A DNA stretch of 20,000 bases from an uncultured virus (IMG/VR IMGVR_UViG_3300034073_002641). Taxonomy: Duplodnaviria > Heunggongvirae > Uroviricota > Caudoviricetes. Made by a program: the position numbers and the translations under genes. The notes under the pieces are model-generated. The model was not told the DNA's origin, made no database searches, and saw only the letters and a list, made by a program, of their open reading frames with translations. The DNA is taken from IMG/VR virus record IMGVR_UViG_3300034073_002641, positions 56,756 through 76,755 of that record. One strand, given 5' to 3'. Shown here piece by piece: positions 204-12,519 of the stretch. Each line of letters starts with the position of its first letter. The first letter of the stretch is position 1.

Positions 204-228
204 ATTTTAAACTTAAAATAACAAAAAA

Positions 229-615: not shown

Positions 616-620
616 TAACA

Positions 621-661
621 AAGAAGGCTACTTGGAGATTTTTAAGTAGCCTTCTTACTTT
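621..661 (+). terminator. Stem-loop, probable intrinsic terminator or processing hairpin
   Basis: Perfect 13-bp inverted repeat AAGAAGGCTACTT (621-633) / AAGTAGCCTTCTT (644-656), 10-nt loop, weak U-tail. Confidence 0.7.
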
Positions 662-674
662 AAAATACAAAAGT

Positions 675-869
675 ATGAAAAACGTTGGTTCAAAAATAAC
701 AAAACAAATTGATATTTTAAATACAAATAATGAAGCATTTATTGATTATAAAGTAAATAAATATTTGAGGCGTAAAAGTGATTTAGAATTTGAGGAGATG
801 TTAGAGCAGATACAGAATAAAATGCCCTGCATACCTATTGTTAGGTTTTTAATTAGAAAAAATAAATAA
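675..869 (+). CDS. Small array protein (MKNV)
   Basis: ORF track; 64 aa; family N-terminus. Confidence 0.75.
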   Translation: MKNVGSKITKQIDILNTNNEAFIDYKVNKYLRRKSDLEFEEMLEQIQNKMPCIPIVRFLIRKNK

Positions 870-870
870 A

Positions 871-1056
871 ATGAAGAATGTTAAACAACATATCCATAAT
901 CAAATTAATTATTTAGTTAAATATCGTACACCTACGCTTGTGAGTTTTTGGAGTATGGATACAATGTATAGGATTCACCTCAAATTAAATAGTGAGGTTC
1001 GTAATCAGATAACTAATGCACAACCACCATTGATTAAAGAAACCATTTTAAAATAA
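871..1056 (+). CDS. Small array protein (MKNV)
   Basis: ORF track; 61 aa. Confidence 0.75.
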   Translation: MKNVKQHIHNQINYLVKYRTPTLVSFWSMDTMYRIHLKLNSEVRNQITNAQPPLIKETILK

Positions 1057-1062
1057 ACAAGA

Positions 1063-1260
1063 ATGAAGAATGTTTCCAGAGTTATAACTTCAAAAGGATT
1101 ATATATTGATAAAATTTATCCTGGTAAGAAGTATGAGAAAGCATGGTTTCAAGCTGCACCTATTATGGATGAATCAAAAAATCAGGTAGATAACATTGCA
1201 TATTATAACATAATCAAAAATTTATTTCCTAATATGAAAAATAATTTTAAACATGGATAA
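1063..1260 (+). CDS. Small array protein (MKNV)
   Basis: ORF track; 65 aa. Confidence 0.75.
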   Translation: MKNVSRVITSKGLYIDKIYPGKKYEKAWFQAAPIMDESKNQVDNIAYYNIIKNLFPNMKNNFKHG

Positions 1261-1432
1261 CATTGGGGACTTAATAGTGTGGAAAATACATTTAAAGATT
1301 AAGGAGAAAGTTACAAAAGATATATCATATAGTATGTATCTTAAAACTAACATGAATAGTAAATTTATACAAATAAGCCGTTTTCATTGGTTAACAAATA
1401 ATGTTATTCAACAAGTTAGAAAATTAAAATGA
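1253..1432 (+). CDS. Small array protein (MDNI), absent from the ORF track
   Basis: Hand translation: MDNIGDLIVWKIHLKIKEKV...NNVIQQVRKLK*, 59 aa; 8-nt overlap with the upstream ORF. Confidence 0.75.
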   Translation: MDNIGDLIVWKIHLKIKEKVTKDISYSMYLKTNMNSKFIQISRFHWLTNNVIQQVRKLK

Positions 1433-1438
1433 CAAAAC

Positions 1439-1645
1439 ATGAAGAATATTGATAAACAAATAATTTATCAAATATATAAGCAACATAGGGAAAAGGTCAA
1501 TGATATTATTAATGACAAAGGATACAACATATATGCTAATATTGGAAATAAGTTGTGGGATGTTGCTTGGCTTCAGGTGGAGAATAACGTGACTAATAAT
1601 GTAGTTATGCAAGTGAAAAATAAATTAAAACATGAAGAATATTAA
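1439..1645 (+). CDS. Small array protein (MKNI); close paralog of the next ORF
   Basis: Shares DKG..IY.....KLWD..WLQV.NN...KNKL with 1632-1838. Confidence 0.8.
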   Translation: MKNIDKQIIYQIYKQHREKVNDIINDKGYNIYANIGNKLWDVAWLQVENNVTNNVVMQVKNKLKHEEY

Positions 1646-1838
1646 TGAATTTATATTACGTAAAATATATGACCAATATAGGATGAAGGCTGATAATGCT
1701 ATATTTGACAAAGGATGGAAAATATATACTAAACTTACAGTTAAATTATGGGATCCTTCTTGGTTGCAGGTGGATAATAATATGGCAGAAAAATTAATTA
1801 CCCAAATAAAGAATAAATTAAACTATGAAGAACATTAG
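1632..1838 (+). CDS. Small array protein (MKNI)
   Basis: Paralog of 1439-1645; 14-nt overlap. Confidence 0.8.
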   Translation: MKNINEFILRKIYDQYRMKADNAIFDKGWKIYTKLTVKLWDPSWLQVDNNMAEKLITQIKNKLNYEEH

Positions 1839-2049
1839 TAGAAACATATTTGATGTGATGATATATGATGGTGTAAATTCTAACATAAAACAAAATGCTG
1901 CCACAAATATTGGTGATAGATTATGGAAAATTATGTGGGATAAGGCAGAGGATGGTATATATGGACAAGTTTTCTTACCAATAAGAGACCAGGTGTGGCT
2001 TGAAATAGATAATCCAAAAAAACTTAAAATTAAGAAATGGAAAGAGTGA
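1825..2049 (+). CDS. Small array protein (MKNI)
   Basis: 74 aa; GQVFLPIRDQVW motif; 14-nt overlap. Confidence 0.75.
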   Translation: MKNISRNIFDVMIYDGVNSNIKQNAATNIGDRLWKIMWDKAEDGIYGQVFLPIRDQVWLEIDNPKKLKIKKWKE

Positions 2050-2225
2050 ACAGTAAAATCACAAAGAAAATTTCATCAATAGAGAAGTTAGAAAGACTTA
2101 ACTTAATTCCAACTATTAATCCTGCATATCATATTAGATATCGAGAAATAATAAATGACCAAATATTTAAGCAAATGACACATAATTTTACAGATAATCT
2201 TAGAATAAAAATAATGTTTAAGTGA
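2037..2225 (+). CDS. Small array protein (MERV)
   Basis: 62 aa; overlaps both neighbours. Confidence 0.7.
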   Translation: MERVNSKITKKISSIEKLERLNLIPTINPAYHIRYREIINDQIFKQMTHNFTDNLRIKIMFK

Positions 2226-2572
2226 TGAAAAATATTGGGCAAGAAACAAAAGATAAATTAGTAAATGAAATTAGAATTCCAATTTGGAATGGAAGTTATG
2301 AAACTTTATTTAGTAGATTGCGCCATAAAATCTGGACAGAACTATATCATAAAACAACAAATCAAATGCTAACAATGAGAAATATTTCAAGTGTGGTAAA
2401 TAGTAAATTTACTAAAATACAGGTTAATGTTTTTCACACTAAAACTGATAATGTTAGTTATAGAGTTGATTTTAAAGTTGATACAAAGTTATCATATCTA
2501 CGTACTGGTCGTCGCTTAATAAGTGTCATAGGTAAACAAATATGGTATAAAGTTAAATCTATAATATTATGA
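2225..2572 (+). CDS. Double-length array protein (two modules fused in frame)
   Basis: MKNIG.. at 2225 and a second in-frame MRNISS.. at ATG 2375. Confidence 0.75.
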   Translation: MKNIGQETKDKLVNEIRIPIWNGSYETLFSRLRHKIWTELYHKTTNQMLTMRNISSVVNSKFTKIQVNVFHTKTDNVSYRVDFKVDTKLSYLRTGRRLISVIGKQIWYKVKSIIL

Positions 2573-2739
2573 AAAGTGTAAGAATTGAAATTTTGAATCA
2601 AGTGTATGATGAAATTGAAGTTAAGTTAAAGGATACAATAGAAGAAAAAGAATACCTACCTGGTAATCAGTTTAGGTGGTTTAATAGTCGAGTGACAATA
2701 AACCTAAAATTAAGAAATTTGCCAAAGATAATTTTATGA
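2569..2739 (+). CDS. Small array protein (MKSV), absent from the ORF track
   Basis: MKSVRIEILNQVYDE...KEYLPGN...INLKLRNLPKIIL*, 56 aa; ATGA overlaps at both ends. Confidence 0.8.
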   Translation: MKSVRIEILNQVYDEIEVKLKDTIEEKEYLPGNQFRWFNSRVTINLKLRNLPKIIL

Positions 2740-2906
2740 AAAGTATAAGAACTATAATTTTGAATCAAGTGCATGATGAAACTCTAAGAAATTTAAAGGG
2801 TGTAATAAAAATAAAAGAATATCTTCCTGGTAATGTTTGGATGGGGGCTTATATGCAAGGAATAATCAACCTAAAATTAAGAAACTTGCCAAAGATAATT
2901 TTATGA
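2736..2906 (+). CDS. Small array protein (MKSI), absent from the ORF track; duplicate of the previous ORF
   Basis: MKSIRTIILNQVHDE...KEYLPGN...INLKLRNLPKIIL*, 56 aa. Confidence 0.8.
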   Translation: MKSIRTIILNQVHDETLRNLKGVIKIKEYLPGNVWMGAYMQGIINLKLRNLPKIIL

Positions 2907-3289
2907 GTAAGAAAGTTAGAGATTTGTTGTTTGAAAAATGCAATGGTAGATGTTGTTATTGTGGTGATAAGTTAGAGAAAGGTTGGCACATTGACGAAAT
3001 AGAACCTGTTAAAAGAAATCATATATATGACAAAGTTAAGAAGAAATTTGTGATAGATAAAGATAATCCTATGCAGCATCCAGAACGATTAACAATTGAA
3101 AATCAAAATCCAAGCTGTCCAAGTTGCAATATTAATAAACATTCATTATCTTTGGAAGAGTTTAGGTCTTTGATTAAAGGGTTCATGAAACATCTAAATG
3201 AGAAATCAACCCAATATAAAATTGCAAAACGTTATGGTCTTGTCCAGGAGAATGAGATTGATATAGTTTTTTATTTTGAAAAAAATTAA
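2903..3289 (+). CDS. HNH endonuclease
   Basis: GRCCYCG...WHIDEIEP...NQNPSCPSCNINK. Start moved to ATG 2903 (ATGA overlap). The usual D-H is D-E here. Confidence 0.85.
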   Translation: MSKKVRDLLFEKCNGRCCYCGDKLEKGWHIDEIEPVKRNHIYDKVKKKFVIDKDNPMQHPERLTIENQNPSCPSCNINKHSLSLEEFRSLIKGFMKHLNEKSTQYKIAKRYGLVQENEIDIVFYFEKN

Positions 3290-3293
3290 AAGC

Positions 3294-3464
3294 ATGAAAA
3301 ATGTAGATGATAAAATACGGAAACATATAGGTATGAAAGTTAATTTTGTATTACGTAAAGAATTACGTAAACAAATAACTATTGAATACTATGATTACCC
3401 CCAATTTGGTAATCAAACACTTCAAGAATTGTTTTCCAAAATAGAAAAAAGATTAAAAGCATGA
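3294..3464 (+). CDS. Small array protein (MKNV)
   Basis: Start moved to ATG 3294; 56 aa. Confidence 0.75.
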   Translation: MKNVDDKIRKHIGMKVNFVLRKELRKQITIEYYDYPQFGNQTLQELFSKIEKRLKA

Positions 3465-3634
3465 AAAATGTGGCTAGTAAAATTGGAAATAAAATACAAA
3501 ACCCACGATCCATTACTCCCATATCAATACAAGTGGTTCATCATATTAGGGATAAAGTATATCTACGACCTTGGACACAAGTTCATCAACAAGTATCTAT
3601 TCAAATAAAAGAAAACCTAAAATTTAAAGTATGA
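3461..3634 (+). CDS. Small array protein (MKNV), absent from the ORF track
   Basis: MKNVASKIGN...PWTQVHQQVSIQIKENLKFKV*, 57 aa. Confidence 0.8.
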   Translation: MKNVASKIGNKIQNPRSITPISIQVVHHIRDKVYLRPWTQVHQQVSIQIKENLKFKV

Positions 3635-3804
3635 GAAATGTAGGTCATGAAATAGAAGCTAAAGTCCAGTATCCAAGATGGAATAAACATGCACGGGTAC
3701 CAGTGGTTAATAATGCTAGGCATCAAGTATATCATCAGGTATGGAGGCAAGTTAGCCAACAAGTATCTATGCAAATGAAAGCAAACTTAAAATTTAAAGT
3801 ATGA
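3631..3804 (+). CDS. Small array protein (MRNV), absent from the ORF track
   Basis: MRNVGHEIEA...HQVYHQVWRQVSQQVSMQMKANLKFKV*, 57 aa; paralog of the previous ORF. Confidence 0.8.
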   Translation: MRNVGHEIEAKVQYPRWNKHARVPVVNNARHQVYHQVWRQVSQQVSMQMKANLKFKV

Positions 3805-3953
3805 AAAATGTAATAGATAAAGTGTATATGCAAGTGGGTTATTTTGTACATGATAAACCAAATATGCAATTAAGAAAAAAAATACTTAGAGTAGGAGAGG
3901 TTCAAACAAATGGTCAACTATGGTTTCAAATACAAAACAACCTAAAATTATGA
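3801..3953 (+). CDS. Small array protein (MKNV), absent from the ORF track
   Basis: MKNVIDKVYMQV...QLWFQIQNNLKL*, 50 aa. Confidence 0.75.
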   Translation: MKNVIDKVYMQVGYFVHDKPNMQLRKKILRVGEVQTNGQLWFQIQNNLKL

Positions 3954-4147
3954 ATAGTGTAAGCCAGAAAATATCTAAAGAATTAGGAGATAAAGTAACT
4001 ACCTATGTAGTTAAAAAAAGTATTCTTCAAATAAGTAATAAAGTGCTTATTCAAGCAGAAGGGGAAGTTTTTGAACAGATTATTGGTCAATTATATCAAA
4101 ATTTAGAACCAAATGTAAAAAAGACTATGTTGAAGCATAATTTTTAA
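3950..4147 (+). CDS. Small array protein (MNSV)
   Basis: Start moved to ATG 3950 (ATGA overlap); 65 aa. Confidence 0.75.
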   Translation: MNSVSQKISKELGDKVTTYVVKKSILQISNKVLIQAEGEVFEQIIGQLYQNLEPNVKKTMLKHNF

Positions 4148-4172
4148 TTACATTTTCAAAAACTAAATAATT

Positions 4173-4619
4173 ATGGCTATTAAAGACCTTGTCCCTTATG
4201 AACTAGCATTAGAACTTAAAAAACTAGGTTTTAGAGAACCTTGTTTTGGTAATTATAAAGAAACTGAAATAATAGATTACAACCTTGGAAGACATAATAA
4301 ACATATCTTTTTAGATACTATAAATGGTCTTCAAGATTATAATGAGCATAATAAAGAGACAGATGCTTCAGCTCCTACTTTTACAGCAGCATTTAGGTTT
4401 TTTAGGGAGAAGTTTGATTGGCAATTTTCAGTAGAAGCAACATCTGATCAGCACAATTGTGAACTTGGTTACAATTATTGGATTTGGAATCATAAAACAG
4501 GTGAAGAATACCATACAATGCCAAAAAATAGACCTTCTGGTGATTGGGAATATGAAACCTATGAAGAAGCTGATTTAGCAGGTTTAAATAAATTAATTGA
4601 GGTTGTAAAAAACAAATAA
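4173..4619 (+). CDS. Phage hypothetical protein, ALELK.LGF.EPC / FRWFREK / TYEEA family
   Basis: Motifs shared with 5874-6248 and 6250-6612. Confidence 0.8.
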   Translation: MAIKDLVPYELALELKKLGFREPCFGNYKETEIIDYNLGRHNKHIFLDTINGLQDYNEHNKETDASAPTFTAAFRFFREKFDWQFSVEATSDQHNCELGYNYWIWNHKTGEEYHTMPKNRPSGDWEYETYEEADLAGLNKLIEVVKNK

Positions 4620-4620
4620 A

Positions 4621-5022
4621 ATGAGCAAACAAACAGAAAATTATATAGGAAGTCAACAACATTGGGAAGATAGAATAAATGATGATTATGATTATCTAAA
4701 ACAAATGGAAAAGGAAATGGAAAAGGATGTGGAAAAACTAATATACAATGGGTTAGAAAAACAAAACAAAATGATTTTAACACCAAAAGAAGAAGCAAAA
4801 GAGCTAGTTGATACATTCTATCAAACAACTCCTAATGAGACTTGGATTGATGAGCCTTTAGGGGAATTTATGGAAACCTATACAGCTTGGGGACAGGCTA
4901 AACAATGTGCTTTGATTGCAGTTGATAAGATATTGTTTGTACTTAACTTTAATCTTGATTTTAAAATGGAAAGGTCTATTGCACATTATTTAGAAGTTAA
5001 ACAAGAAATAGAAAAATTATAA
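4621..5022 (+). CDS. Phage hypothetical protein with a TPKE.AKEL...AKQCALIAVD...EVKQEIEKL module
   Basis: ORF track; possible internal start at ATG 4771 after an A-rich tract. Confidence 0.75.
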   Translation: MSKQTENYIGSQQHWEDRINDDYDYLKQMEKEMEKDVEKLIYNGLEKQNKMILTPKEEAKELVDTFYQTTPNETWIDEPLGEFMETYTAWGQAKQCALIAVDKILFVLNFNLDFKMERSIAHYLEVKQEIEKL

Positions 5023-5041
5023 CAACAAAAAAACTAAAACT

Positions 5042-5542
5042 ATGAAAACACCAGTTGATTATTTATGTGATGTTATCAATAGCCAGTATGGTAGCAGGAT
5101 TACAAATTACACAATCCCAAATGAGGTTTTTGAACGTATCAAGAAACTAGAAGAGGATTATCATAAAGTAACAGAAAACACCTCTGATGGATATCACACC
5201 TTTAAGGAATTATATGATTTTAGAGCAGCCTACAATGCTTTATTGTTTAATGAGTGGGCAAATCAGAAAGGTGATGAAGAGTTCCAGGATTTGAACCAGG
5301 TGATGCAGAACACCAAATATAGTGTCCATAAGAGTTGGAAACATAATGATGGTTATCCTTGTTTTGGTGGGGGCTGGTTTATTGTTGTGGCAAAATTACC
5401 AAGTGGCCAAATATCCAATCACTATCCAGCAGATAGGTGGGATGATTTTAAAGTCCCAGAAACATCAAAAGCATTATTTCCTTTTGATGGTCATACAAGT
5501 CATGCTGTTTTGAAAATATTACAGAAAGAACTTGCGCAGTAA
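5042..5542 (+). CDS. WDGH-motif family phage protein
   Basis: SDGYHTFKELY...HKSWKHNDG...GWFIV...LPSGQISNHY...WDDF...FDGHT. Confidence 0.75.
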   Translation: MKTPVDYLCDVINSQYGSRITNYTIPNEVFERIKKLEEDYHKVTENTSDGYHTFKELYDFRAAYNALLFNEWANQKGDEEFQDLNQVMQNTKYSVHKSWKHNDGYPCFGGGWFIVVAKLPSGQISNHYPADRWDDFKVPETSKALFPFDGHTSHAVLKILQKELAQ

Positions 5543-5570
5543 TTTTATTTCCCTTATATTTGTGTATCAA
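5530..5570 (+). promoter_or_regulatory. Bacteroidota-type sigma70 promoter (-7 TAnnTTTG)
   Basis: TATATTTG at 5555-5562 in an intergenic gap, with TTG about 20 nt upstream. Confidence 0.65.
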
Positions 5571-5584
5571 AAAAAATAATAGTT

Positions 5585-5845
5585 ATGTCATACATTACAG
5601 TGGAAGCTGATATTGATTTGGATGATTATTCAGATGAAATCATCTATATGTTCAAAAGAAACAAAAGGTTTAGAGAGAACCTATTACAAGCAATGGAAGA
5701 TGATAATATAGGATTTGTTCTTAATAGAGGTGGTGATGATAAATATGATGATAGGAAAACACAACTTTCTAAAATAAGTGAAAACTACTGGAAATTGACT
5801 GTTGAGGATGAGGAACTAATTAATAAGATTGCAGATAGGTTTTAA
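5585..5845 (+). CDS. Hypothetical protein
   Basis: ORF track; directly downstream of the promoter. Confidence 0.7.
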   Translation: MSYITVEADIDLDDYSDEIIYMFKRNKRFRENLLQAMEDDNIGFVLNRGGDDKYDDRKTQLSKISENYWKLTVEDEELINKIADRF

Positions 5846-5873
5846 GGAATTTATTAACCATAAACTAAACAAA

Positions 5874-6248: not shown

Positions 6249-6249
6249 T

Positions 6250-6612: not shown

Positions 6613-6617
6613 ATATT

Positions 6618-7535
6618 ATGAAAAACATACACATAATTCCAACAGATAAACCAAGTAGGTTAGGATATCTAACTAAAAAAGGTAAGCAAGTCTTTAATGA
6701 TTTAAGGTTATTTGATAGGGTTATGCCTAACATTTTGGATAGCGAAAATCAACACCTATACATCACTAATGATGAAGAAATTATAGAAGGGGATTTAATT
6801 ATCTATAAAAATGGTGATGAATATTTTTTTGCTGAATATCGTTTAGGTTATTATGATAGATATGAACTATGTAAAAAAATCATCCTAACCACAGACCAAG
6901 ACTTGATTAAAGACCATGTTCAAGCTATTGATGATGAGTTTTTAGAATGGTTTGTTAATAATCCAAGTTGTGAGGAGGTTGAGGTTAGAGAAATTGAAGT
7001 AGAAGATTATGTTGGATTTGCAGGACATACAAGTTATCCAACTTTCCATAAGGAATACAAAATAATTATTCCAAAAAAAGAACCTAAACAATTAAATTTA
7101 GAATATTTTGGATTACCAAAAATTGGAACAAAAGAGTTTAATGACTTAGCATCTGGTTTGTTTGGTGGTAAACCTAAACAAGAAAAACTCACATACACAG
7201 AATCAGCAAAGAAGGAAGAAAGAATATCTAATTCTATTATGATGAAACGTAAACAAGAAACGGTTGAAGATGCTGCTGAAAATAACTGGGATAAAATAAA
7301 TTCAGAATATAAAAATGGATTAAATCCTTATGCACATAAAATAGGATTTATTGAAGGTGCTGAATGGATGCAAGAGAGAATGTATAGTGAGGAAGAAGTT
7401 AATGATTTACTAGAGATGCTTAAACGTAGTATTTCAGAAATAAATCATCTTAAATACACCTACAAAGATAAAGGTCATTGTGGTAAATATTTAAGTGATT
7501 GTGAAACCATTATTGAACAATTTAAAAAGAAATAA
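6618..7535 (+). CDS. Modular phage hypothetical protein
   Basis: MKNIHIIPTDKPSRL, KKIILTTDQDLI..VQAIDDEFLEWFV, YKIIIPK.EPKQ, ETVEDAAE..F.EGA.W.QERMYSEEEV modules. Confidence 0.8.
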   Translation: MKNIHIIPTDKPSRLGYLTKKGKQVFNDLRLFDRVMPNILDSENQHLYITNDEEIIEGDLIIYKNGDEYFFAEYRLGYYDRYELCKKIILTTDQDLIKDHVQAIDDEFLEWFVNNPSCEEVEVREIEVEDYVGFAGHTSYPTFHKEYKIIIPKKEPKQLNLEYFGLPKIGTKEFNDLASGLFGGKPKQEKLTYTESAKKEERISNSIMMKRKQETVEDAAENNWDKINSEYKNGLNPYAHKIGFIEGAEWMQERMYSEEEVNDLLEMLKRSISEINHLKYTYKDKGHCGKYLSDCETIIEQFKKK

Positions 7536-7536
7536 A

Positions 7537-7884
7537 ATGAACTATATAGCTAGAGGTTGTATGTATTGCGAAGGTATTTGTAACAAAGAATGTCTTCCTA
7601 AAAAAGAAACAGTTGATGAGGCTGCTAAAAATATTTATATAGACTTCAATCCTTACCTTTTGGGGGTAAACGTTGGTAATTGGCTAACAAAAGAAGCATT
7701 TAAAAAAGGCGCGAAATGGCAACAAGAACAGATGTATAGTGAGGAAGATTTGATTAGTTTTGCACATTTTTATTTTCAAGAAGAATTTAACTCAACAATG
7801 CAAAATTCTAATAAATCAGCAGAGGAAATTTTACAAGAGTGGTTTAATCAATTTAAAAAAACTAAACAAGATGAAACAACTTAA
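7537..7884 (+). CDS. Phage hypothetical protein with an ETV.EAA..GAKWQQE.MYSEE module
   Basis: Shares the module with 6618-7535; N-terminal CMYC...C...C; start moved to ATG 7537. Confidence 0.75.
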   Translation: MNYIARGCMYCEGICNKECLPKKETVDEAAKNIYIDFNPYLLGVNVGNWLTKEAFKKGAKWQQEQMYSEEDLISFAHFYFQEEFNSTMQNSNKSAEEILQEWFNQFKKTKQDETT

Positions 7885-8098
7885 TGAAACCATTACCCCC
7901 ACCTCAACAGAGTTCAATGTTTTTTCATATTCTATATGCAATACAGATGGTCTTTTTGAATATTCTCACTGGACAGAAGGTTTAAAAATGATTATAATTA
8001 AAAATGGGGTAACAATTGAGTTAGAGCCTGATGAAATTCAGCAGTTGGTTAATACTCTCCCCAGGACATTTGGTCAATCTTACAAACAAAAAAACTAA
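7871..8098 (+). CDS. Hypothetical protein
   Basis: Start moved to ATG 7871; 75 aa. Confidence 0.65.
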   Translation: MKQLNETITPTSTEFNVFSYSICNTDGLFEYSHWTEGLKMIIIKNGVTIELEPDEIQQLVNTLPRTFGQSYKQKN

Positions 8099-8103
8099 AT
8101 AAT

Positions 8104-8436
8104 ATGCGACTAGTGAATATTAGTGAAGATCATTACATCATTGTGGATGATTTGGATATTGAAATAGGTGATTGGGTTTATGTGTATTGCTCCGAGATTG
8201 AAGTTGAAGAGATTTGTCAAGTTATTGAATATTATAATGAGCAATTTATATTTAGGGATGGCAGCCAAATTCATTTGGATTATTGTCATAAAATCACCCA
8301 TTCAACAAAACCAATTGAGGTTTATTATGATGATATAACTGGGAAAGAAGTTTGGCATTATGATAAGGTGCAATACTTTATTCCAGAAGTCCAGGGGAAT
8401 AACCTAAATCCATTTATTGAAAAAATGAATTTATGA
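8104..8436 (+). CDS. Hypothetical protein
   Basis: ORF track; I..GDW.Y...C.KITHST motif loosely similar to part of 6618-7535. Confidence 0.7.
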   Translation: MRLVNISEDHYIIVDDLDIEIGDWVYVYCSEIEVEEICQVIEYYNEQFIFRDGSQIHLDYCHKITHSTKPIEVYYDDITGKEVWHYDKVQYFIPEVQGNNLNPFIEKMNL

Positions 8437-8624
8437 AAAATATTTGTAATCAGATTCATTTTACATTATATAAGATGAGAATTGGTTTGGGTGATGAAGC
8501 GTGGGATAAAGTTAGTGATAATGTTAGGCTTACAGTAAGGGCTAAAGCAGGGGATGAAGGAGTGATAAGCAATAAAATAATGAATCAAGGAGTGAATCAA
8601 GTAAAACTAAATGTAAAGTTATGA
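8433..8624 (+). CDS. Small array protein
   Basis: MKNI...QVKLNVKL; paralog of the next ORF. Confidence 0.75.
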   Translation: MKNICNQIHFTLYKMRIGLGDEAWDKVSDNVRLTVRAKAGDEGVISNKIMNQGVNQVKLNVKL

Positions 8625-8806
8625 ACAGTTTTTCTAATCAGATTCATGAAAAGTTGTACAAGAGGAGAATTAGTTTTGGAGTTAAAGTAAGTAATGAAGT
8701 ATGTAATGAATTAAGTGATAAGGTATGTAATAAAGTAAGTGATAAGGTATCTAATAAAGTAAGGGATAGGGTAGTGAAACAAGTAAAACAAAATGTAAAG
8801 TTATGA
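8621..8806 (+). CDS. Small array protein with an internal tetrapeptide repeat
   Basis: KVSN EVCN ELSD KVCN KVSD KVSN KVRD RVVK QVKQ. Confidence 0.8.
   Translation: MNSFSNQIHEKLYKRRISFGVKVSNEVCNELSDKVCNKVSDKVSNKVRDRVVKQVKQNVKL
8684..8791 (+). repeat. Degenerate 12-bp tandem repeat (about 9 units, consensus AARGTAWGTRAT)
   Basis: AAAGTAAGTAAT GAAGTATGTAAT GAATTAAGTGAT AAGGTATGTAAT AAAGTAAGTGAT AAGGTATCTAAT AAAGTAAGGGAT... Confidence 0.8.
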
Positions 8807-9027
8807 AGAGGGTTAACTCTATAATTGGTAATAGGGTTAATACTAAGCGTAATGACACTTCGGATAAAATATCTTATCATGTTGCTAGTTATATTCGTGG
8901 TATAATAAATAATGCTGTTAGTCGTAATCTTAATATGGAAGTGAAACACCCAATATACTGGGATGTTTTGAATAATGGCTGGAATAATATAGAGGTCTTA
9001 AATATTAACGTAGATGAGGAATATTAG
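8803..9027 (+). CDS. Small array protein
   Basis: MKRV; ORF track. Confidence 0.75.
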   Translation: MKRVNSIIGNRVNTKRNDTSDKISYHVASYIRGIINNAVSRNLNMEVKHPIYWDVLNNGWNNIEVLNINVDEEY

Positions 9028-9205
9028 TCATGAAATTGATATAAAAACACGTGGTAAAATCTTATATAAGTTATTTGATTATGTTGTGGGTTATGCCTGG
9101 GATAGAACCAGTAGGAGTAATAGCCCTATTAACAGACTATTATTTACGCAAACAAGTTTACCAGTTTGTTTGGTGATTGGTAGTAAATTAAAAAAAAATA
9201 AATGA
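9014..9205 (+). CDS. Small array protein
   Basis: MRNI; ORF track. Confidence 0.75.
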   Translation: MRNISHEIDIKTRGKILYKLFDYVVGYAWDRTSRSNSPINRLLFTQTSLPVCLVIGSKLKKNK

Positions 9206-9387
9206 AAAATATTAAATACATATTGGCAGATAGGGGGGTTTCTTTTACACAAAAGATGGCATATAAAACAGTATTTTTTGATCAGGATATAAAGAATAAA
9301 ATAACAGATGAGAAAATAAACTCAATTTATGAAAACACAAAAACTATCTTAAACAATGTAAAACATACAATATATGATAAATATTAG
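9202..9387 (+). CDS. Small array protein
   Basis: MKNI; ORF track. Confidence 0.75.
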   Translation: MKNIKYILADRGVSFTQKMAYKTVFFDQDIKNKITDEKINSIYENTKTILNNVKHTIYDKY

Positions 9388-9556
9388 TAAAATTGATTTG
9401 AAAATAACTAACAAATTACATTCGCCTTTAAATATAAAGGTATATAAGAAAATGGATTTCTGTTTACAAAATATAATGGGTAGGGTTTATGATAATATGC
9501 TAGTTGAGGTAAGTCACCAGTTTTATTCACTTATTAAAAATAACGTAAAAAAATAA
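9374..9556 (+). CDS. Small array protein
   Basis: MINI; ORF track. Confidence 0.75.
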   Translation: MINISKIDLKITNKLHSPLNIKVYKKMDFCLQNIMGRVYDNMLVEVSHQFYSLIKNNVKK

Positions 9557-9558
9557 TC

Positions 9559-9765
9559 ATGGAGAACATTGGTGTAAAGAATTTTCAGAAATGGGATATG
9601 ATTTGGGAGCATTTACTGGCTAAGTTGTCCAAGAAAGTAAATTATCTTTTGGAAGATAAGATAAGGGATAAGGCATTTTTCAATATATTGGCTCAGACAG
9701 AGAACCAGGTGTATTTTCAGACTTTAAATAATTTAAAAAAACATAATTATGGAGAACATTTTTGA
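9559..9765 (+). CDS. Small array protein
   Basis: MENI; paralog of the next ORF (L.A..S.K....LE.KIR.K). Confidence 0.75.
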   Translation: MENIGVKNFQKWDMIWEHLLAKLSKKVNYLLEDKIRDKAFFNILAQTENQVYFQTLNNLKKHNYGEHF

Positions 9766-9937
9766 AAAAAAATTAGATGATATATGGAGTATATTCCAGG
9801 AGAGGTTACAGGCTAGGGTGTCCAATAAATTATGCTCTAATTTAGAAGTTAAAATAAGAAGTAAAATGTATAAAGAAAATAGTGATGTTCACTGGCTTGA
9901 AGTTGAAAATAATTTAATAATAGGCAACAATGAATAA
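9749..9937 (+). CDS. Small array protein
   Basis: MENI; ORF track. Confidence 0.75.
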   Translation: MENIFEKKLDDIWSIFQERLQARVSNKLCSNLEVKIRSKMYKENSDVHWLEVENNLIIGNNE

Positions 9938-10115
9938 TATAAAGTATGATATTAGTTTTAATTTTCCCTATAGGAAAAGATTAAATAATGCAGTTGACTG
10001 TGTTGAACACAAGACTTATGATTGTGCAAACAATGTTATTTTTTCAGTAGTTTGGTTAAGAACTTTACCTTTATATAGAGAGGTTGTAGAAAAAGTAAAA
10101 AAACAAATAGAATGA
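9930..10115 (+). CDS. Small array protein
   Basis: MNNI; ORF track. Confidence 0.75.
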   Translation: MNNIKYDISFNFPYRKRLNNAVDCVEHKTYDCANNVIFSVVWLRTLPLYREVVEKVKKQIE

Positions 10116-10333
10116 AGAATATTCATTACACAATTGGAGCAAAATTTAGTAATACCCATGACAAAATTTCAAATAAAGTATTTGATTGTGTTGGGACTTC
10201 TATTTCAGTTAAATCTTTTAATTCAAAAGAGGATGTAATATACCAGCTTCTTGATAGATCCTTTGATATAGAAGAGGATATAATAATCCAGGTTCTTGAC
10301 CGTCTTAAAACCCAAATATATGAAAAATATTAG
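10112..10333 (+). CDS. Small array protein
   Basis: MKNI; ORF track. Confidence 0.75.
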   Translation: MKNIHYTIGAKFSNTHDKISNKVFDCVGTSISVKSFNSKEDVIYQLLDRSFDIEEDIIIQVLDRLKTQIYEKY

Positions 10334-10502
10334 TAAAAAGGTTAATTTACGTACTAGAGTTGATGCTGCTATGTTTGTAATTACAATTAATCGTATAAAT
10401 GGTGTTGCCTGGGGTTGTACTTGGGATATTTCTAATGACATTAAAAAAATTGAATCTACTTATGATGTGTGTAAGGAGATTGAAAATAAATTAGAAAAAT
10501 AA
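10320..10502 (+). CDS. Small array protein
   Basis: MKNI; start moved to ATG 10320. Confidence 0.75.
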   Translation: MKNISKKVNLRTRVDAAMFVITINRINGVAWGCTWDISNDIKKIESTYDVCKEIENKLEK

Positions 10503-10503
10503 T

Positions 10504-10701
10504 ATGAAAAAGATTAAGATTGGAGGTCAAGCCAAATTACGTGCTGAAATGTTAGACATAGTGTCAAATCACACTATGCAAAAATCTTGGCGTAAGATAG
10601 GGGATATGATATCTTATAATATAGAAATGCAGATAACAGATCAGGTTTATTCTCATATTGAAAATAATTTAAAAAAGAAATTAAACTATGAAGAATATTA
10701 G
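10504..10701 (+). CDS. Small array protein
   Basis: MKKI...DQVYSHIENNLK. Confidence 0.75.
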   Translation: MKKIKIGGQAKLRAEMLDIVSNHTMQKSWRKIGDMISYNIEMQITDQVYSHIENNLKKKLNYEEY

Positions 10702-10906
10702 AACAAGTGTTAGTGAATGTATGAATTATTTAAGACACAATAAATTTACAGCAAACACATCTGTTGTTCTTGGAGATAATGATAAAGTAACTAACACTGT
10801 TCATCAGAGTATGAAAGATAAAGTAAATTTTTCAATTATATTTCTAATTCAAAGTGGTTATGAGGTACGTAATGTGATTGAAAACAAATTAAACTATGAG
10901 AAATAA
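10688..10906 (+). CDS. Small array protein
   Basis: MKNI...IENKL. Confidence 0.75.
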   Translation: MKNIRTSVSECMNYLRHNKFTANTSVVLGDNDKVTNTVHQSMKDKVNFSIIFLIQSGYEVRNVIENKLNYEK

Positions 10907-11141
10907 AAAAGGGGTGATTAGGGATTTTACAATTACTTTTATACAAAGGATGTATAAACAACAAAATAGAAATGGCTTTGAGGAAAATATACATCATAAT
11001 CTAATTGATTCAAATCTTGATGGTGGAAGAGATATGTTTAGAATTTGCCTTTCTACACAAAATGGTAAAGTTAATAGAGAAATTGAATTTAGTTCTGCTG
11101 TCAAAATGGAATTGGTGAATAATTTAATTTATAAAAAATGA
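10896..11141 (+). CDS. Small array protein
   Basis: MRN...NNL; 81 aa. Confidence 0.7.
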   Translation: MRNKKGVIRDFTITFIQRMYKQQNRNGFEENIHHNLIDSNLDGGRDMFRICLSTQNGKVNREIEFSSAVKMELVNNLIYKK

Positions 11142-11329
11142 TAAATTTTAGAGGAAAGATTGGTGATGATATACTTGATTTTATTCGGGGTATGCATAAA
11201 ATAAAAATAGATGATTACATTGCAATTGACGTATATACCAATGTGGTTGAAGTTACTATTCATGGTGCAAGCGGTGTATTAAGGAGTTCAATATTTAACC
11301 AGGTTGAGAATAATTTAAAAAACAAATAG
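11138..11329 (+). CDS. Small array protein (IGD/QVENNLK subgroup)
   Basis: Similar to the next three ORFs. Confidence 0.8.
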   Translation: MINFRGKIGDDILDFIRGMHKIKIDDYIAIDVYTNVVEVTIHGASGVLRSSIFNQVENNLKNK

Positions 11330-11518
11330 ATGAGAAATGTTAAAAGAAATATTGCTGATAAGATAAATGCTTTTAGATGGTACAAGTGTAGGCCAAGAAT
11401 AAATGGTTACGTTATGGAAAATGTAATTGGCAATATAACTAATCCTTTTATTGGTGTAAGTGCTATAGCAAGGATTTCAATATCTGACCAGGTTGAGGAT
11501 AATTTAAAAAACAAATAG
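11330..11518 (+). CDS. Small array protein (IGD/QVENNLK subgroup)
   Basis: MRNV...SISDQVEDNLKNK. Confidence 0.8.
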   Translation: MRNVKRNIADKINAFRWYKCRPRINGYVMENVIGNITNPFIGVSAIARISISDQVEDNLKNK

Positions 11519-11725
11519 ATGAGAAATGTTAATGCAAAAATTGGTTATATTCTAAACAACATTAGGTGGGATAAATATGACCAAAAAACAATAAATAGTG
11601 TTGGGCCTGATCTATATGATATTGTTGTTGAATATGCTCTTCTTGGTGTAAGAGGAACAGTATTCAAGGCTTCAATACTTGACCAGAATGATACTAATTT
11701 AAATAGGAATGATGAGAAATATTAG
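11519..11725 (+). CDS. Small array protein (IGD/QVENNLK subgroup)
   Basis: MRNV...GVRG...SILDQ. Confidence 0.8.
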   Translation: MRNVNAKIGYILNNIRWDKYDQKTINSVGPDLYDIVVEYALLGVRGTVFKASILDQNDTNLNRNDEKY

Positions 11726-11915
11726 AACAAGTATTGGTGATAAGATAAACTTTTTTAGATTGGCTAAATCTCTAACAAGAACAGATGATTGTCTTAAAGC
11801 CAATGTATATAATAGTGTGAGTGATAAAACTCTTAATGGTGTAAGAGATATATTAAAGATTACACTATATAGTCAGATTGAAAATGAATTAGAAAAACAA
11901 CATGAAGAATATTAA
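11709..11915 (+). CDS. Small array protein (IGD/QVENNLK subgroup)
   Basis: (M)MRNI..IGDKIN.FR...GVR...QIENEL. Confidence 0.8.
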   Translation: MMRNIRTSIGDKINFFRLAKSLTRTDDCLKANVYNSVSDKTLNGVRDILKITLYSQIENELEKQHEEY

Positions 11916-12111
11916 AAAAAATATTAATTTAGCATTCAATAGTAATGGAACACACAATAAGATAGTTAATCTTATTAGCACACATAGAAGTCATTATGAA
12001 TGTTCTTATATATATGATTTTATAGTTTTTGATCCAGGACAAAGACAAATTCCCTTTTCTAGTGTAAATCACGGGATTAAAAAACAAATTAAAAAAAACA
12101 ATAAATTATGA
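11902..12111 (+). CDS. Small array protein (last of array 2)
   Basis: MKNI; ORF track. Confidence 0.75.
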   Translation: MKNIKKNINLAFNSNGTHNKIVNLISTHRSHYECSYIYDFIVFDPGQRQIPFSSVNHGIKKQIKKNNKL

Positions 12112-12515: not shown

Positions 12516-12519
12516 AAAT

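What the first reader, a model, noticed from the sequence alone, without database searches (positions are those of the whole stretch)
675..12111. Two arrays with about 35 tandem, hypervariable micro-proteins sharing a common frame
Seen: 16 ORFs in 675-4147 (six missed by the ORF track) and 19 in 8433-12111, almost all 50-81 aa, same strand, overlapping or abutting. They share M-[KRE]-[NS]-[IV] starts, a basic QV/QI..NLK tail and 4-residue hydrophobic periodicity, while the cores have diverged almost beyond recognition. Neighbours are the closest relatives (1439/1632, 2569/2736, 3461/3631, 8433/8621, 9559/9749, 11138-11915). Inference: an accordion-like repertoire that grows by local duplication and diversifies rapidly, for example a library of helical binders or decoys against host defences, or specificity subunits. 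I know of no described function.
Basis: partly seen in the sequence, partly recalled or inferred. Interest (0 to 1): 0.9.

Follow-up and report, generated by a model that had tools for sequence, protein, structure and literature searches.

The report
Detached tetrapeptide-repeat mini-gene arrays
A giant uncultured freshwater phage carries 36 tiny back-to-back genes, each a free-standing, diverged copy of a four-amino-acid repeat that related phages build into one unstudied protein (DUF6745); a structure model docks one copy onto the phage's own repeat-less DUF6745, but what the set does is unknown.

Summary
Window 675-4147 and 8433-12111 hold 36 modules (17 + 19; the 116-aa ORF is two fused modules), all on the + strand. 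They have no in-frame stop in 2286 codons and are chained by ATGA or 14-nt overlaps. They form one family, seen by profile and by a 4-residue hydrophobic period.

More canonical relatives show the build: MKNV cap, then (x-x-Q-V)n, then a KQNIKL cap. The same repeat is the internal tract of DUF6745 (PF20530) proteins. The phage's single DUF6745 gene ends at window 203 and lacks that tract, whereas homologues at 51-57% identity carry about 9 to 60 repeats at that spot.

Among related loci with at least 5 kb of flank, 7 of 7 repeat-less DUF6745 clusters had arrays and 0 of 8 repeat-bearing clusters did. Three repeat-less loci had none within reach.

A complex model docks module 8621 onto the DUF6745 protein (ipSAE 0.83, best control 0.00).

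Orthologous modules are under purifying selection (dN/dS 0.38-0.55). Module number changes between strains.

Function is unknown. The nearest studied analogue, Tweety gp54, is not homologous. The verdict is a real, unpublished split-tract architecture, also noted by earlier agents of this scan in other genomes.

The parts
3..203 (+). 3' end of the phage's single DUF6745 gene (whole gene = genome 55942-56958, 338 aa, P0187); it has no tetrapeptide tract
   Evidence: PF20530 27.9 bits against cut-off 27; phrog_31813; best BFVD fold match is the Microcystis phage LMM01 DUF6745 protein, E 1.7e-14; alignment A2 shows the tract missing; one copy per 270-kb genome
229..615 (+). Conserved 128-aa partner gene directly downstream of DUF6745, function unknown
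   Evidence: tblastn finds it in 13 of 15 DUF6745 loci from the viral collection, including tract-bearing ones, and directly downstream of the DUF6745 gene in 12 of these (4 kb downstream in L028); dN/dS 0.02-0.15; no Pfam, PHROG, NCBIfam or PADLOC family
675..869 (+). module 1 (64 aa)
   Evidence: HMM 22.8 bits; leave-one-out 15.1 against shuffle max 9.2
871..1056 (+). module 2 (61 aa)
   Evidence: HMM 33.9 bits; leave-one-out 19.6
1063..1260 (+). module 3 (65 aa)
   Evidence: HMM 36.7 bits
1253..1432 (+). module 4 (59 aa)
   Evidence: HMM 30.5 bits
1439..1645 (+). module 5 (68 aa); absent from one natural variant contig
   Evidence: HMM 55.3 bits; joint 1430->1632 in run X4; many 85-99% variants in metagenomes
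1632..1838 (+). module 6 (68 aa), paralogue of module 5
   Evidence: phmmer E 4.9e-21 to module 5
1825..2049 (+). module 7 (74 aa)
   Evidence: HMM 53.9 bits
2037..2225 (+). module 8 (62 aa)
   Evidence: HMM 35.3 bits
2225..2374 (+). module 9 (50 aa), no stop, fused in frame to module 10
   Evidence: two HMM domains in one open frame
2375..2572 (+). module 10 (65 aa)
   Evidence: HMM 27.0 bits
2569..2739 (+). module 11 (56 aa)
   Evidence: HMM 24.0 bits; phmmer E 4.3e-17 to module 12
2736..2906 (+). module 12 (56 aa)
   Evidence: HMM 24.7 bits
2903..3289 (+). HNH endonuclease gene lying exactly at a module junction (ATGA); it splits array 1
   Evidence: weak PF01844 match, E 0.001 and below the Pfam cut-off; the ATG at 2903 overlaps the stop of module 12
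3294..3464 (+). module 13 (56 aa)
   Evidence: HMM 24.0 bits
3461..3634 (+). module 14 (57 aa)
   Evidence: HMM 57.2 bits
3631..3804 (+). module 15 (57 aa)
   Evidence: HMM 57.6 bits
3801..3953 (+). module 16 (50 aa)
   Evidence: HMM 38.0 bits
3950..4147 (+). module 17 (65 aa)
   Evidence: HMM 36.7 bits
8433..8624 (+). module 18 (63 aa)
   Evidence: HMM 49.7 bits
8621..8806 (+). module 19 (61 aa); the most canonical copy, it keeps a 12-nt DNA repeat; this is the copy docked on DUF6745 in the model
   Evidence: HMM 54.3 bits; TRF period 12, 6.8 copies at 8683-8763; complex ipSAE 0.83 against control 0.00
8803..9027 (+). module 20 (74 aa)
   Evidence: HMM 43.6 bits
9014..9205 (+). module 21 (63 aa)
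   Evidence: HMM 48.0 bits
9202..9387 (+). module 22 (61 aa)
   Evidence: HMM 31.5 bits
9374..9556 (+). module 23 (60 aa)
   Evidence: HMM 37.7 bits
9559..9765 (+). module 24 (68 aa)
   Evidence: HMM 61.5 bits
9749..9937 (+). module 25 (62 aa)
   Evidence: HMM 43.2 bits
9930..10115 (+). module 26 (61 aa)
   Evidence: HMM 47.1 bits
10112..10333 (+). module 27 (73 aa)
   Evidence: HMM 46.1 bits
10320..10502 (+). module 28 (60 aa)
   Evidence: HMM 33.1 bits
10504..10701 (+). module 29 (65 aa)
   Evidence: HMM 56.2 bits
10688..10906 (+). module 30 (72 aa)
   Evidence: HMM 44.2 bits
10896..11141 (+). module 31 (81 aa), the weakest member
   Evidence: HMM 29.6 bits when it is in the model, but leave-one-out gives 2.0 bits, no better than shuffles
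11138..11329 (+). module 32 (63 aa)
   Evidence: HMM 41.4 bits
11330..11518 (+). module 33 (62 aa)
   Evidence: HMM 37.0 bits
11519..11725 (+). module 34 (68 aa)
   Evidence: HMM 32.6 bits
11712..11915 (+). module 35 (67 aa)
   Evidence: HMM 50.6 bits
11902..12111 (+). module 36 (69 aa)
   Evidence: HMM 44.7 bits

Best explanation
The two arrays encode 36 small proteins (plus one lone copy elsewhere on the contig). Each is a free-standing version of the tetrapeptide-repeat tract that DUF6745 proteins normally carry inside one polypeptide. The build is an MKN[IV] cap, about 10-16 degenerate x-x-[Q/K/N]-[V/I/L] units, and a KQN[IV]KL-type cap.

Shown:
- They are one translated gene family under purifying selection.
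- They match DUF6745 tracts at profile level.
- This phage's only DUF6745 protein, encoded 470 bp upstream of array 1 with its conserved 128-aa partner, lacks the tract at exactly the place where close homologues have it.
- Arrays and a repeat-less DUF6745 go together in related loci.
- Module number changes by whole-module gain and loss.

Inferred:
- Each mini-protein folds on, and binds, the helical N-terminal half of the repeat-less DUF6745. It lays its conserved every-fourth-residue hydrophobic stripe on the protein and leaves the variable polar positions outward.
- One constant DUF6745-partner scaffold can therefore be dressed with any of about 37 alternative variable subunits made from a translationally coupled operon.
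- The conserved cap-to-cap junctions serve as the homology for unequal crossing-over that expands, contracts and reorders the array.

Guessed, by analogy only: the complex acts in phage-host or phage-phage conflict, as does the non-homologous tetrapeptide-repeat protein gp54 of mycobacteriophage Tweety.
For: Coding and selection.
- There are 0 stops in 2286 in-frame codons, and GC by codon position resembles neighbouring genes.
- Of the 33 junctions within the arrays (the 35 spacings less the two large gaps), 11 are ATGA overlaps and 8 are 14-nt overlaps.
- For 18 orthologues against strain L055, Sd is 82.4/643.8 and Nd 143.6/2824.2. That gives dN/dS 0.38, with a binomial test against neutrality of p = 2.7e-10.
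- Pooled dN/dS among L009, L010 and L011 is 0.44-0.55.

Family and repeat. The 119 modules from loci L007-L012 are canonical MKNV-(xxQV)n-KQNIKL.

Link to DUF6745.
- A profile of the 36 modules, run against 1.84 billion representatives, gave 206 hits at E<=1e-3. The top hits are 400-600 aa proteins. Of the 18 long hits scanned, 14 carry PF20530, after a long ([WRGS][DAN]QV)n tract in those printed.
- P0187 is DUF6745 and has no tract. Homologues at 51-57% identity (P0207-P0211, P0009, P0215) have about 9 to 60 repeats inserted between its residues ~95 and ~97.

Co-occurrence, for loci with at least 5 kb of flank, clustered at 80% identity.
- Repeat-less DUF6745: 7 of 7 clusters have arrays.
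- Tract-bearing DUF6745: 0 of 8 clusters (11 loci) have any small-frame HMM hit.
- Four more tract-bearing loci in MAGs have 0-1 period-4 small ORFs.
- A second, independent flavour exists. L028 (DUF6745 37% identical, repeat-less) has about 22 mini-genes of (x-S-E-L)n between DUF6745 and the partner.

Docking.
- P0187 with module 8621 gave ipSAE 0.82, 0.85 and 0.83 (median 0.83); the best of 3 controls was 0.00.
- That mark was reached by 116 of 157 solved complexes and 2 of 215 mismatched pairs.
- The runs share at least 72% of contacts, and the partner's pLDDT is at least 86. It falls to 44 when DUF6745 is replaced by an unrelated protein.
- The lowest-error contacts are the period-4 hydrophobics I8, L12, F19, V23, V35, V39 and V43.
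- Predicted interface residues of P0187 are 57% hydrophobic, against 30% for other residues of region 20-200. They are also more conserved (0.58 against 0.50, Mann-Whitney p = 0.003).

Turnover.

Contigs of two metatranscriptome libraries lie on modules of array 1, and those of one library also on array 2.
Against: - Only one of 36 modules was docked, and a model score is not a measurement. My own unpaired alignments were used, and A3 contains tract-bearing homologues, so the model may be replaying the intramolecular packing of the fused form.
- Three repeat-less loci (L042, L043, L054) show no array within the 5.7-10 kb available.
- The co-occurrence rests on perhaps two independent lineages (the QV clade and the SEL clade), not seven.
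- Array 2 lies 8-12 kb from the DUF6745 gene.
- A ratio of about 37 modules to one scaffold is unexplained.
- Orthologue dN/dS is not significantly above that of neighbouring accessory genes (Fisher p = 0.31), so hypervariability is mostly between paralogues and in copy number.
- The window's modules are degenerate. Only 11 of 36 pass the single-ORF period-4 test at z>=2.5.
- The RNA-library contigs do not prove transcription, because DNA carry-over is possible.
- No function is known for DUF6745, and its model has no match with E<=0.001 (Foldseek) and a best VIA-align Z of 5.0 among solved structures.
Confidence: 0.55

Rival explanations
1. The mini-proteins are independent small early proteins, for example host-takeover factors, anti-defence binders or decoys. 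They act on host targets on their own. Their likeness to the DUF6745 tract reflects common descent or convergence of an amphipathic period-4 helix, not a present-day partnership.
For: They are numerous, small, translationally chained and lie among accessory genes. Array 2 is 8-12 kb from DUF6745. Three repeat-less DUF6745 loci have no array nearby. One lone module sits far from DUF6745, at genome 44070-44258.
Against: The docking model scores 0.83 against controls of 0.00, and the module is confident only when DUF6745 is present (pLDDT 86-89 against 44). Arrays were found only with repeat-less DUF6745 (7 of 7 clusters against 0 of 8). The module caps align to the start of the fused tract.
Confidence: 0.27
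2. The arrays are decaying or selfish repeat DNA, the debris of an expanded tetrapeptide tract. It is kept open by chance or by weak constraint and has no function of its own.
For: Cores are very diverged. Paralogue dN/dS is near or above 1 in 5 of 10 pairs. Module number varies freely between strains. The window's copies are more degenerate than those of relatives.
Against: There are 0 stops in 2286 codons, where 10% stops per codon are expected. Orthologue dN/dS of 0.38 is far below neutrality (p = 2.7e-10). Some modules differ only by synonymous changes. Arrays of 16-49 modules are kept in all 5 related records searched.
Confidence: 0.08
3. The conserved thing is a DNA or RNA element at the junctions, such as a repeated promoter, terminator or recombination site, and the ORFs are incidental.
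For: Junction DNA (-30..+12) is more alike than core DNA (mean pairwise identity 0.51 against 0.33).
Against: Sigma-70-like promoters (71 against 85.6 expected) and terminators (3 against 3.4) are not enriched. There are no Rfam families. The conservation is at protein level, seen in period-4 residues, excess synonymous change and an open frame. Promoter types of non-sigma-70 hosts were not covered.
Confidence: 0.04
4. The diversity is written by a diversity-generating retroelement or another targeted mutator.
For: Diversity is concentrated in a repeated frame.
Against: PF00078 reverse transcriptase has no match in the 270-kb (90% complete) and 168-kb related records, while the control genomes did ring. 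Substitutions show no adenine-specific pattern that I tested for. Variation is explained by duplication, unequal crossing-over and point change.
Confidence: 0.02

Closest known systems
Internal tetrapeptide-repeat tract of DUF6745 (Pfam PF20530, phrog_31813) proteins, e.g. P0207, P0009, P0211 here; the family includes the Microcystis phage LMM01 DUF6745 protein
   Same: They share the same unit (x-[D/N]-Q-V and variants), the same 4-residue period and profile-level similarity. The tract sits exactly where this phage's DUF6745 has none. The same 128-aa neighbour gene is present.
   Different: Here the tract is not part of the DUF6745 polypeptide. It is encoded as 36-37 separate capped genes of 50-81 aa in tandem arrays, most of which have lost the 12-nt DNA repeat (only module 8621 keeps it). 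The family has no known function, and I found no paper naming it.
Mycobacteriophage Tweety gp54 (with Che8 gp57, PMC gp51): a tetrapeptide-repeat, mutationally 'tunable' counter-defence protein
   Same: It is a phage accessory protein with a fast-changing tetrapeptide tract whose repeat number differs between relatives. It is non-essential. Escape mutants against the Phrann gp29/gp30 defence change the repeat number. Sources read: passages of PMC2884959 and of PMC9262239.
   Different: It is not homologous. gp54 has no Pfam family, and hhalign against the DUF6745 profile gives probability 0.1%. Its unit is A-A-x-[S/Y], it is GC-rich, and the tract is in one polypeptide between two domains. It has no arrays of separate genes.
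Arrays of 'detached DUF6745 repeat' mini-genes noted by earlier agents of this scan in other uncultured phages (S-V-x-x and other flavours)
   Same: The architecture is the same: capped tetrapeptide-repeat mini-genes, chained in tandem, beside a repeat-less DUF6745, with a docking model.
   Different: The genomes and the repeat flavour differ (here x-x-Q-V, much degenerated). Here there are two arrays of 17 and 19 in a jumbo phage of about 270-300 kb. Those are unchecked AI notes, not publications.
Bordetella phage BMP-1 bbp36 VR2 repeat region
   Same: It is a variable-number repeat in a non-essential phage gene, cited as a parallel in PMC2884959 (passages read).
   Different: It has a 24-bp unit within one gene. 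There is no evidence of homology, and I did not test it here.

Membership tests
DUF6745 (PF20530), for the 338-aa gene ending at window 203 | Match to the Pfam model above its gathering score | tested here: met
   27.9 bits against cut-off 27; 28.4 bits, marked over the cut-off, in the identical 270-kb record; phrog_31813 E 5.5e-9
DUF6745 (PF20530), for the 338-aa gene ending at window 203 | Same fold as a named DUF6745 protein | tested here: met
   AF2 model has pLDDT 91 and pTM 0.83; the best BFVD match is the Microcystis phage LMM01 DUF6745 protein, E 1.7e-14, TM 0.51-0.56
DUF6745 proteins with an internal tetrapeptide tract | Tetrapeptide repeat tract between the N-terminal helices and the C-terminal domain of the same polypeptide | tested here: not met
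   P0187 and its 66-97% identical homologues in A2 (P0189, P0191, P0198, P0201) have no tract; homologues at 51-57% identity have about 9 to 60 units there
DUF6745 tetrapeptide tract, for the 36 modules | 4-residue period with a hydrophobic residue at every fourth place | tested here: met
   Lag 4, 8 and 12 give z of 7.4, 6.8 and 5.0; lag 4 is the maximum in 27 of 36 modules against 3 of 28 control proteins
DUF6745 tetrapeptide tract, for the 36 modules | Profile-level similarity to tracts of DUF6745 proteins | tested here: met
   The top hits of the module profile are tract-bearing DUF6745 proteins, E down to 1.5e-33. The module HMM scores 46-204 bits on 8 of 8 tract-bearing homologues and -0.9 on the repeat-less P0187. 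Low-complexity bias may inflate these scores.
DUF6745 domain, for the 36 modules | Match to PF20530 itself | tested here: not met
   None of the 35 ORFs has a PF20530 match, even at E<=1; the Pfam model covers the C-terminal domain, not the tract
Tweety gp54-like tunable counter-defence proteins | Sequence homology to gp54 | tested here: not met
   gp54 (L015:1145-2269) has no Pfam family; hhalign of the DUF6745 profile against gp54 gives probability 0.1%
Tweety gp54-like tunable counter-defence proteins | Counter-defence activity tuned by repeat number | not testable with these tools
   This needs a cultured host, a defence system and escape mutants
Diversity-generating retroelement target | Reverse transcriptase in the genome | tested here: not met
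   PF00078 has 0 matches in 2 related records, one of them 90% complete; the control genomes did match
Any catalogued phage, defence or small-protein family | Match in PHROGs, Pfam, NCBIfam or PADLOC | tested here: not met
   No PHROG family for the 35 ORFs. Pfam gave only chance-level hits below cut-offs. NCBIfam and PADLOC, tried on 3 of the 36 modules, gave only hits far below cut-offs.

The most novel reading that the evidence does not exclude
The phage keeps a germline library of specificity subunits. One constant DUF6745-partner scaffold accepts any of about 37 separately encoded, outward-variable helical modules, all made from coupled operons. A single infection therefore fields dozens of differently surfaced complexes at once. 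This would be a parallel, combinatorial answer to diverse host defences or rival phages. It would replace the one-at-a-time, slippage-tuned tract of fused DUF6745 proteins, and it evolved at least twice (the QV and SEL flavours).
Probability: 0.25. Interest if true: 0.9.

Novelty: new variant of a known kind. Interest (0 to 1): 0.8.

Why it matters
- Tetrapeptide-repeat tracts are among the fastest-changing parts of phage accessory proteins. The one studied case (Tweety gp54) tunes escape from a bacterial defence.
- Here the tract of a widespread but unstudied family (DUF6745) has been cut loose and amplified into dozens of separate genes. That is 3-5% of a jumbo phage genome, kept open and under selection.
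- If the modules do plug into DUF6745, this is a new way for a virus to hold a repertoire of variable surfaces.
- It would also give DUF6745 a first testable handle: a small, defined set of natural binding partners, a predicted interface, and natural variants that differ by whole modules.
- The phage occurs in freshwater, wastewater and subsurface metagenomes of 14 studies, so material for tests exists.

Tried and rejected
- **Close DNA relatives.** Megablast of the window against 50,697 phage records found nothing. tblastn of P0187 there gave one weak hit in an uncultured record.
- **Loci from the module alignment.** The search for related loci with A1 was impossible, because no stretch was conserved enough. 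I used flanking genes instead.
- **Family libraries for the modules.** PHROGs, Pfam, NCBIfam and PADLOC gave nothing above cut-offs. The weak rows (YpjP, Cas2, GvpQ, WxxxE effector and others) are low-complexity noise far below cut-offs and were not pursued.
- **Signals in the arrays.** Promoter and terminator scans were not above chance. There are no tRNAs and no Rfam family at gathering score.
- **Targeted mutator.** No reverse transcriptase was found.
- **Fold of DUF6745.** Foldseek against the PDB gave no match at E<=1e-3. VIA-align against 48,161 chains gave a best Z of 5.0 over 71 residues of a beta-meander. I do not claim the fold is new.
- **The 128-aa partner.** The ESM Atlas returned only unnamed viral clusters.
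- **Tweety gp54.** It is not homologous to DUF6745.
- **Fused form.** The fold of the fused form P0207 (alignment A5), meant to compare the cis tract's place with the trans docking site, failed on the server.
- **Repeat-less loci without arrays.** The genome search on the metagenome records of L042, L043 and L054, to look for arrays further away, failed because the records are not held. Those three remain unexplained exceptions.
- **RNA libraries.** In run X16, 16 of 18 bins of 1-12006 have depth, against 4 of 12 bins of 12007-20000. Both DNA runs cover 30 of 30 bins. I give no weight to the uncovered parts, as the tool advises.
- **Literature.** 'DUF6745' is in 0 papers. Six repeat strings are in 0 papers. 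'tetrapeptide repeat' with bacteriophage and hypervariable listed nothing relevant among the 15 rows shown.
- **Earlier notes of this scan.** There are no earlier notes on this genome or sequence.

Full report
**Where the window lies.** The window is the last 20 kb of a 76,755-bp, 30% GC virus contig. PHROG hits on that contig include SbcCD-like nuclease subunits, a sigma factor, RNA ligase and DNA methyltransferases. No structural gene was seen among the 56 larger proteins scanned. The same DNA, at 99.96-99.99% identity, lies in IMG/VR records of 200,775 and 270,075 bp, the latter estimated 90% complete. So this is a jumbo phage of about 270-300 kb. Near-identical sequence is held by runs from 14 studies of freshwater, wastewater and subsurface metagenomes.

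**The observation.**
The 116-aa ORF at 2222-2572 is two modules fused in frame. Three ORFs have their family-type ATG further in, at 3294, 3950 and 10320.
- That gives 36 modules: 17 in 675-4147 and 19 in 8433-12111.
- An HNH endonuclease gene (weak PF01844 match, below the Pfam cut-off) starts at an ATGA junction at 2903 and splits array 1.
- The coding frame has 0 stops in 2286 codons, against 11% and 18% in the other + frames. GC by codon position resembles neighbouring genes.
- Of the 33 junctions within the arrays (35 spacings less the two large gaps), 11 overlap by 4 nt (ATGA) and 8 by 14 nt. The recurrent ...EEY/EEH tails are simply the next gene's ATGAAGAATATT read in another frame.
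- Promoter-like and terminator-like sites are not above chance. The arrays therefore look like translationally coupled operons.

**One family.**
- phmmer all-against-all finds 20 of 595 pairs at E<1e-3, and none in 5 shuffled sets.
- In a leave-one-out HMM test, 35 of 36 modules beat all 30 of their own shuffles; module 10896 fails.
- A six-frame scan of the whole contig hits only these modules and one lone copy at genome 44070-44258.
- Hydrophobic residues recur at lags 4, 8 and 12 (z 7.4, 6.8, 5.0), which other proteins of the genome do not show.
- The best core partner is adjacent in 11 of 36 cases (permutation mean 1.9) and in the same array in 33 of 36.

**What the modules are.**
- Using the flanking 128-aa gene, I fetched related loci, in which that gene is 72-78% identical. 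They carry 7-35 modules each, all on the same strand as the marker and none on the other strand. Whole related records hold 16 to 49.
- Their modules are far more regular than the window's: MKNV, then x-x-Q-V repeated 10-16 times, then KQNIKL. The window's 'cores diverged beyond recognition' are degenerate tetrapeptide repeats of variable number.
- Module 8621 still has a 12-nt DNA repeat.
- A profile of the 36 modules searched against 1.84 billion representatives gave 206 hits. About 22 of the best 150 are similar mini-proteins. The top hits are 400-600 aa proteins with an N-terminal region, a long ([WRGS][DAN]QV)n tract and a C-terminal DUF6745 domain. PF20530 was found in 14 of the 18 long hits scanned.

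**The neighbour.**
- Earlier AI notes of this scan, on other genomes, describe 'detached DUF6745 repeat' mini-gene arrays beside a repeat-less DUF6745. I treated this as a lead and tested it here.
- The gene that ends at window 203 (genome 55942-56958, 338 aa, P0187) is DUF6745. It scores 27.9 bits against a cut-off of 27, matches phrog_31813, and its fold matches the LMM01 DUF6745 protein at E 1.7e-14. It is the only copy in the 270-kb record.
- It has no repeat. Homologues at 51-57% identity carry about 9 to 60 x-[D/N]-Q-V units inserted exactly between its residues ~95 and ~97. Its closer homologues (66-97%) have none.
- The module HMM scores 46-204 bits on the 8 tract-bearing homologues and -0.9 on P0187. 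In three of them the module's N-cap aligns to the first residues of the tract.
- tblastn finds the 128-aa gene at 229-615 in 13 of 15 DUF6745 loci from the viral collection, tract-bearing ones included. It lies directly downstream of the DUF6745 gene in 12 of these and 4 kb downstream in L028.

**Co-occurrence.**
- I collected 15 viral, 63 metagenome and 4 MAG loci with relatives of P0187. For each I scored the tract in the DUF6745 ORF and the mini-genes in the flanks. Mini-genes were scored with the module HMM and with a flavour-blind period-4 test, whose false-positive rate was 5 of 121 background small ORFs.
- Among loci with at least 5 kb of flank, clustered at 80% identity, 7 of 7 repeat-less clusters have arrays. 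Of 8 tract-bearing clusters (11 loci), none has any small-frame hit.
- The 4 MAG loci are tract-bearing and have 0-1 period-4 small ORFs.
- Against this, L042, L043 and L054 are repeat-less with no array within reach. L031, L032 and L034 lack the downstream flank and are uninformative.
- The seven clusters are at most two independent lineages. The second lineage is instructive. In L028 (DUF6745 37% identical, repeat-less), about 22 mini-genes of (x-S-E-L)n lie between DUF6745 and the partner, with caps MKNIREEL...REINSMIDEKH.

**Docking.**
- P0187 (alignment of 59 rows) with module 8621 (136 rows) gave ipSAE 0.82, 0.85 and 0.83 (median 0.83). The best of three controls was 0.00.
- That mark was reached by 116 of 157 solved complexes and 2 of 215 mismatched pairs. 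The runs share at least 72% of contacts, and the partner's pLDDT is at least 86.
- With DUF6745 replaced by an unrelated protein, the module's pLDDT fell to 44.
- The interface covers P0187 residues 21-46, 66-72, 83-91, 101-124 and onward, around the place where the tract is inserted in homologues. It covers nearly the whole module.
- The lowest-error contacts are the every-fourth hydrophobics I8, L12, F19, V23, V35, V39 and V43. Uncontacted residues recur about every fourth place and are mostly polar.
- Interface residues of P0187 are more hydrophobic and somewhat more conserved than the rest of that region.
- This supports binding but does not show it. Only one module was tested, with my own alignments. 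Neither search found a convincing solved-structure match for this fold, so memory of a solved complex is unlikely. Memory of the fused form is possible.

**Evolution.**
- Against the ~90% identical strain L055, 18 orthologous modules give pooled dN/dS 0.38 (p = 2.7e-10 against neutrality). The partner gives 0.02, HNH 0.10, and three other accessory genes 0.23-0.60. The pooled flanking genes give 0.30, not significantly different from the modules.
- Among L009, L010 and L011 the modules give 0.44-0.55, against 0.04-0.15 for DUF6745 and the partner. Some modules carry only synonymous changes and others mostly non-synonymous ones.
- Paralogue pairs give 0.22-2.6 on small counts.
- Copy number changes at every scale examined:
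  - One contig in run X4 joins 1430 to 1632 and so lacks module 1439.
  - L055 has an extra module beside that spot, lacks orthologues of 8621 and 8803, and lacks the 2.1-kb block 6264-8414.
  - L035 (~80% identical) has about 2-3 kb where the window has 11.4 kb.
  - L010 and L011 differ in module order and content although their flanking genes are 97-98% identical.
- Junction DNA is more alike than core DNA (0.51 against 0.33), which fits unequal crossing-over at the caps.
- No reverse transcriptase is present.

**Expression.** Contigs from two metatranscriptome libraries of one study lie on modules. For example, X16 lies on 2195-2631 and 3193-3437 and has depth across 8005-12006. This is consistent with transcription, but DNA carry-over is not excluded.

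**Comparison with the known.**
- The nearest family is the DUF6745 tract itself, which is uncharacterised. No paper in the library names DUF6745 or holds the repeat strings I searched.
- The nearest studied system is Tweety gp54. It has an (A-A-x-S/Y)n tract whose repeat number differs between relatives. By passages I read in a 2022 review, its repeat number changes in mutants that escape the Phrann gp29/gp30 defence. I recall the primary 2017 paper but did not see it.
- gp54 is not homologous to DUF6745. In DUF6745 the tract is an excursion from a loop between packed domains, so the 'spacing of two domains' model proposed for gp54 need not apply.

**Verdict.**
- The finding is a real, selected, translated-looking family of detached tetrapeptide-repeat mini-proteins.
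- My best reading, at confidence 0.55, is that they are exchangeable variable subunits of the phage's repeat-less DUF6745-partner pair.
- Function remains unknown.
- I file it as a new variant of a known kind (phage tetrapeptide-repeat proteins). The architecture is not in print as far as my searches reach, and earlier agents of this scan noted it in other genomes.

Noticed in passing
window 16199-17232: A 1.3-kb stretch at about 40% GC with no ORF over 71 aa holds eight short C4-5...G4-5 hairpins, several of them CCCCC-TWAWTTA-GGGGG. The pattern gives 16 matches at 8 sites against 0.34 expected, and none elsewhere in the window. There is no Rfam family at gathering score and only chance-level rows at E<=1. 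Strain contigs differ here by many small indels.
   Followed up: partly
window 2903-3289: An HNH endonuclease gene starts at an ATGA module junction and splits array 1 into 12 + 5 modules. A second HNH gene lies at 17472-18209.
   Followed up: partly
L028:11102-14986: A more distant phage (DUF6745 37% identical, repeat-less) has about 22 chained mini-genes of a different repeat flavour, (x-S-E-L)n, with caps MKNIREEL...REINSMIDEKH. They lie between DUF6745 and the 128-aa partner gene. The opposite strand also reads as long open period-4 frames.
   Followed up: partly
genome 44070-44258 (L003:6070-6258), outside the window: A lone 62-aa module (…QVVQNTKLN) lies 12.7 kb upstream of the arrays; HMM E 4.7e-4.
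   Followed up: partly
window 4173-4619, 5829-6248, 6250-6612: Three neighbouring genes look like paralogues. All share an N-terminal ...ALELK.LxF.EPCFG motif, and two of them match phrog_25117 and phrog_12005. Function is unknown.
   Followed up: no
window 6264-8414: This 2.1-kb block of genes between the arrays is absent from the ~90% identical strain L055. The whole inter-array block is absent from L035. The two arrays may therefore be one ancestral array split by insertions.
   Followed up: partly
window 13480-14574: A 364-aa protein with weak NUMOD3 and several HTH matches, probably a homing endonuclease, contains an internal direct repeat (14098-14228 and 14254-14384, 76% nt identity).
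   Followed up: no
whole contig; L094-L097: SD-like 4-mers upstream of starts are at the random rate: 1 of 36 modules and 8 of 49 larger genes, against 16% at random positions. Upstream regions are 56-57% A. The four genome-bin loci with relatives of the DUF6745 gene are MAGs labelled Bacteroidota, Bacteroidetes, Ignavibacteriaceae and Melioribacteraceae. Together these hint at a host in that group. The link between missing SD sequences and Bacteroidota is recalled, not tested.
   Followed up: partly
window 8469-8531: One DNA contig (run X5, depth 6.9) joins 8531 back to 8469 with 6 extra letters. This would be an in-frame 69-nt duplication inside module 8433.
   Followed up: no
P0187 residues 296-321 (window ~76-153): The C-terminus of DUF6745 has nearly invariant C296-P-S-T, C308, C317 and H321 (C-x11-C-x8-C-x3-H), which could be a metal site. 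This is inference only.
   Followed up: no
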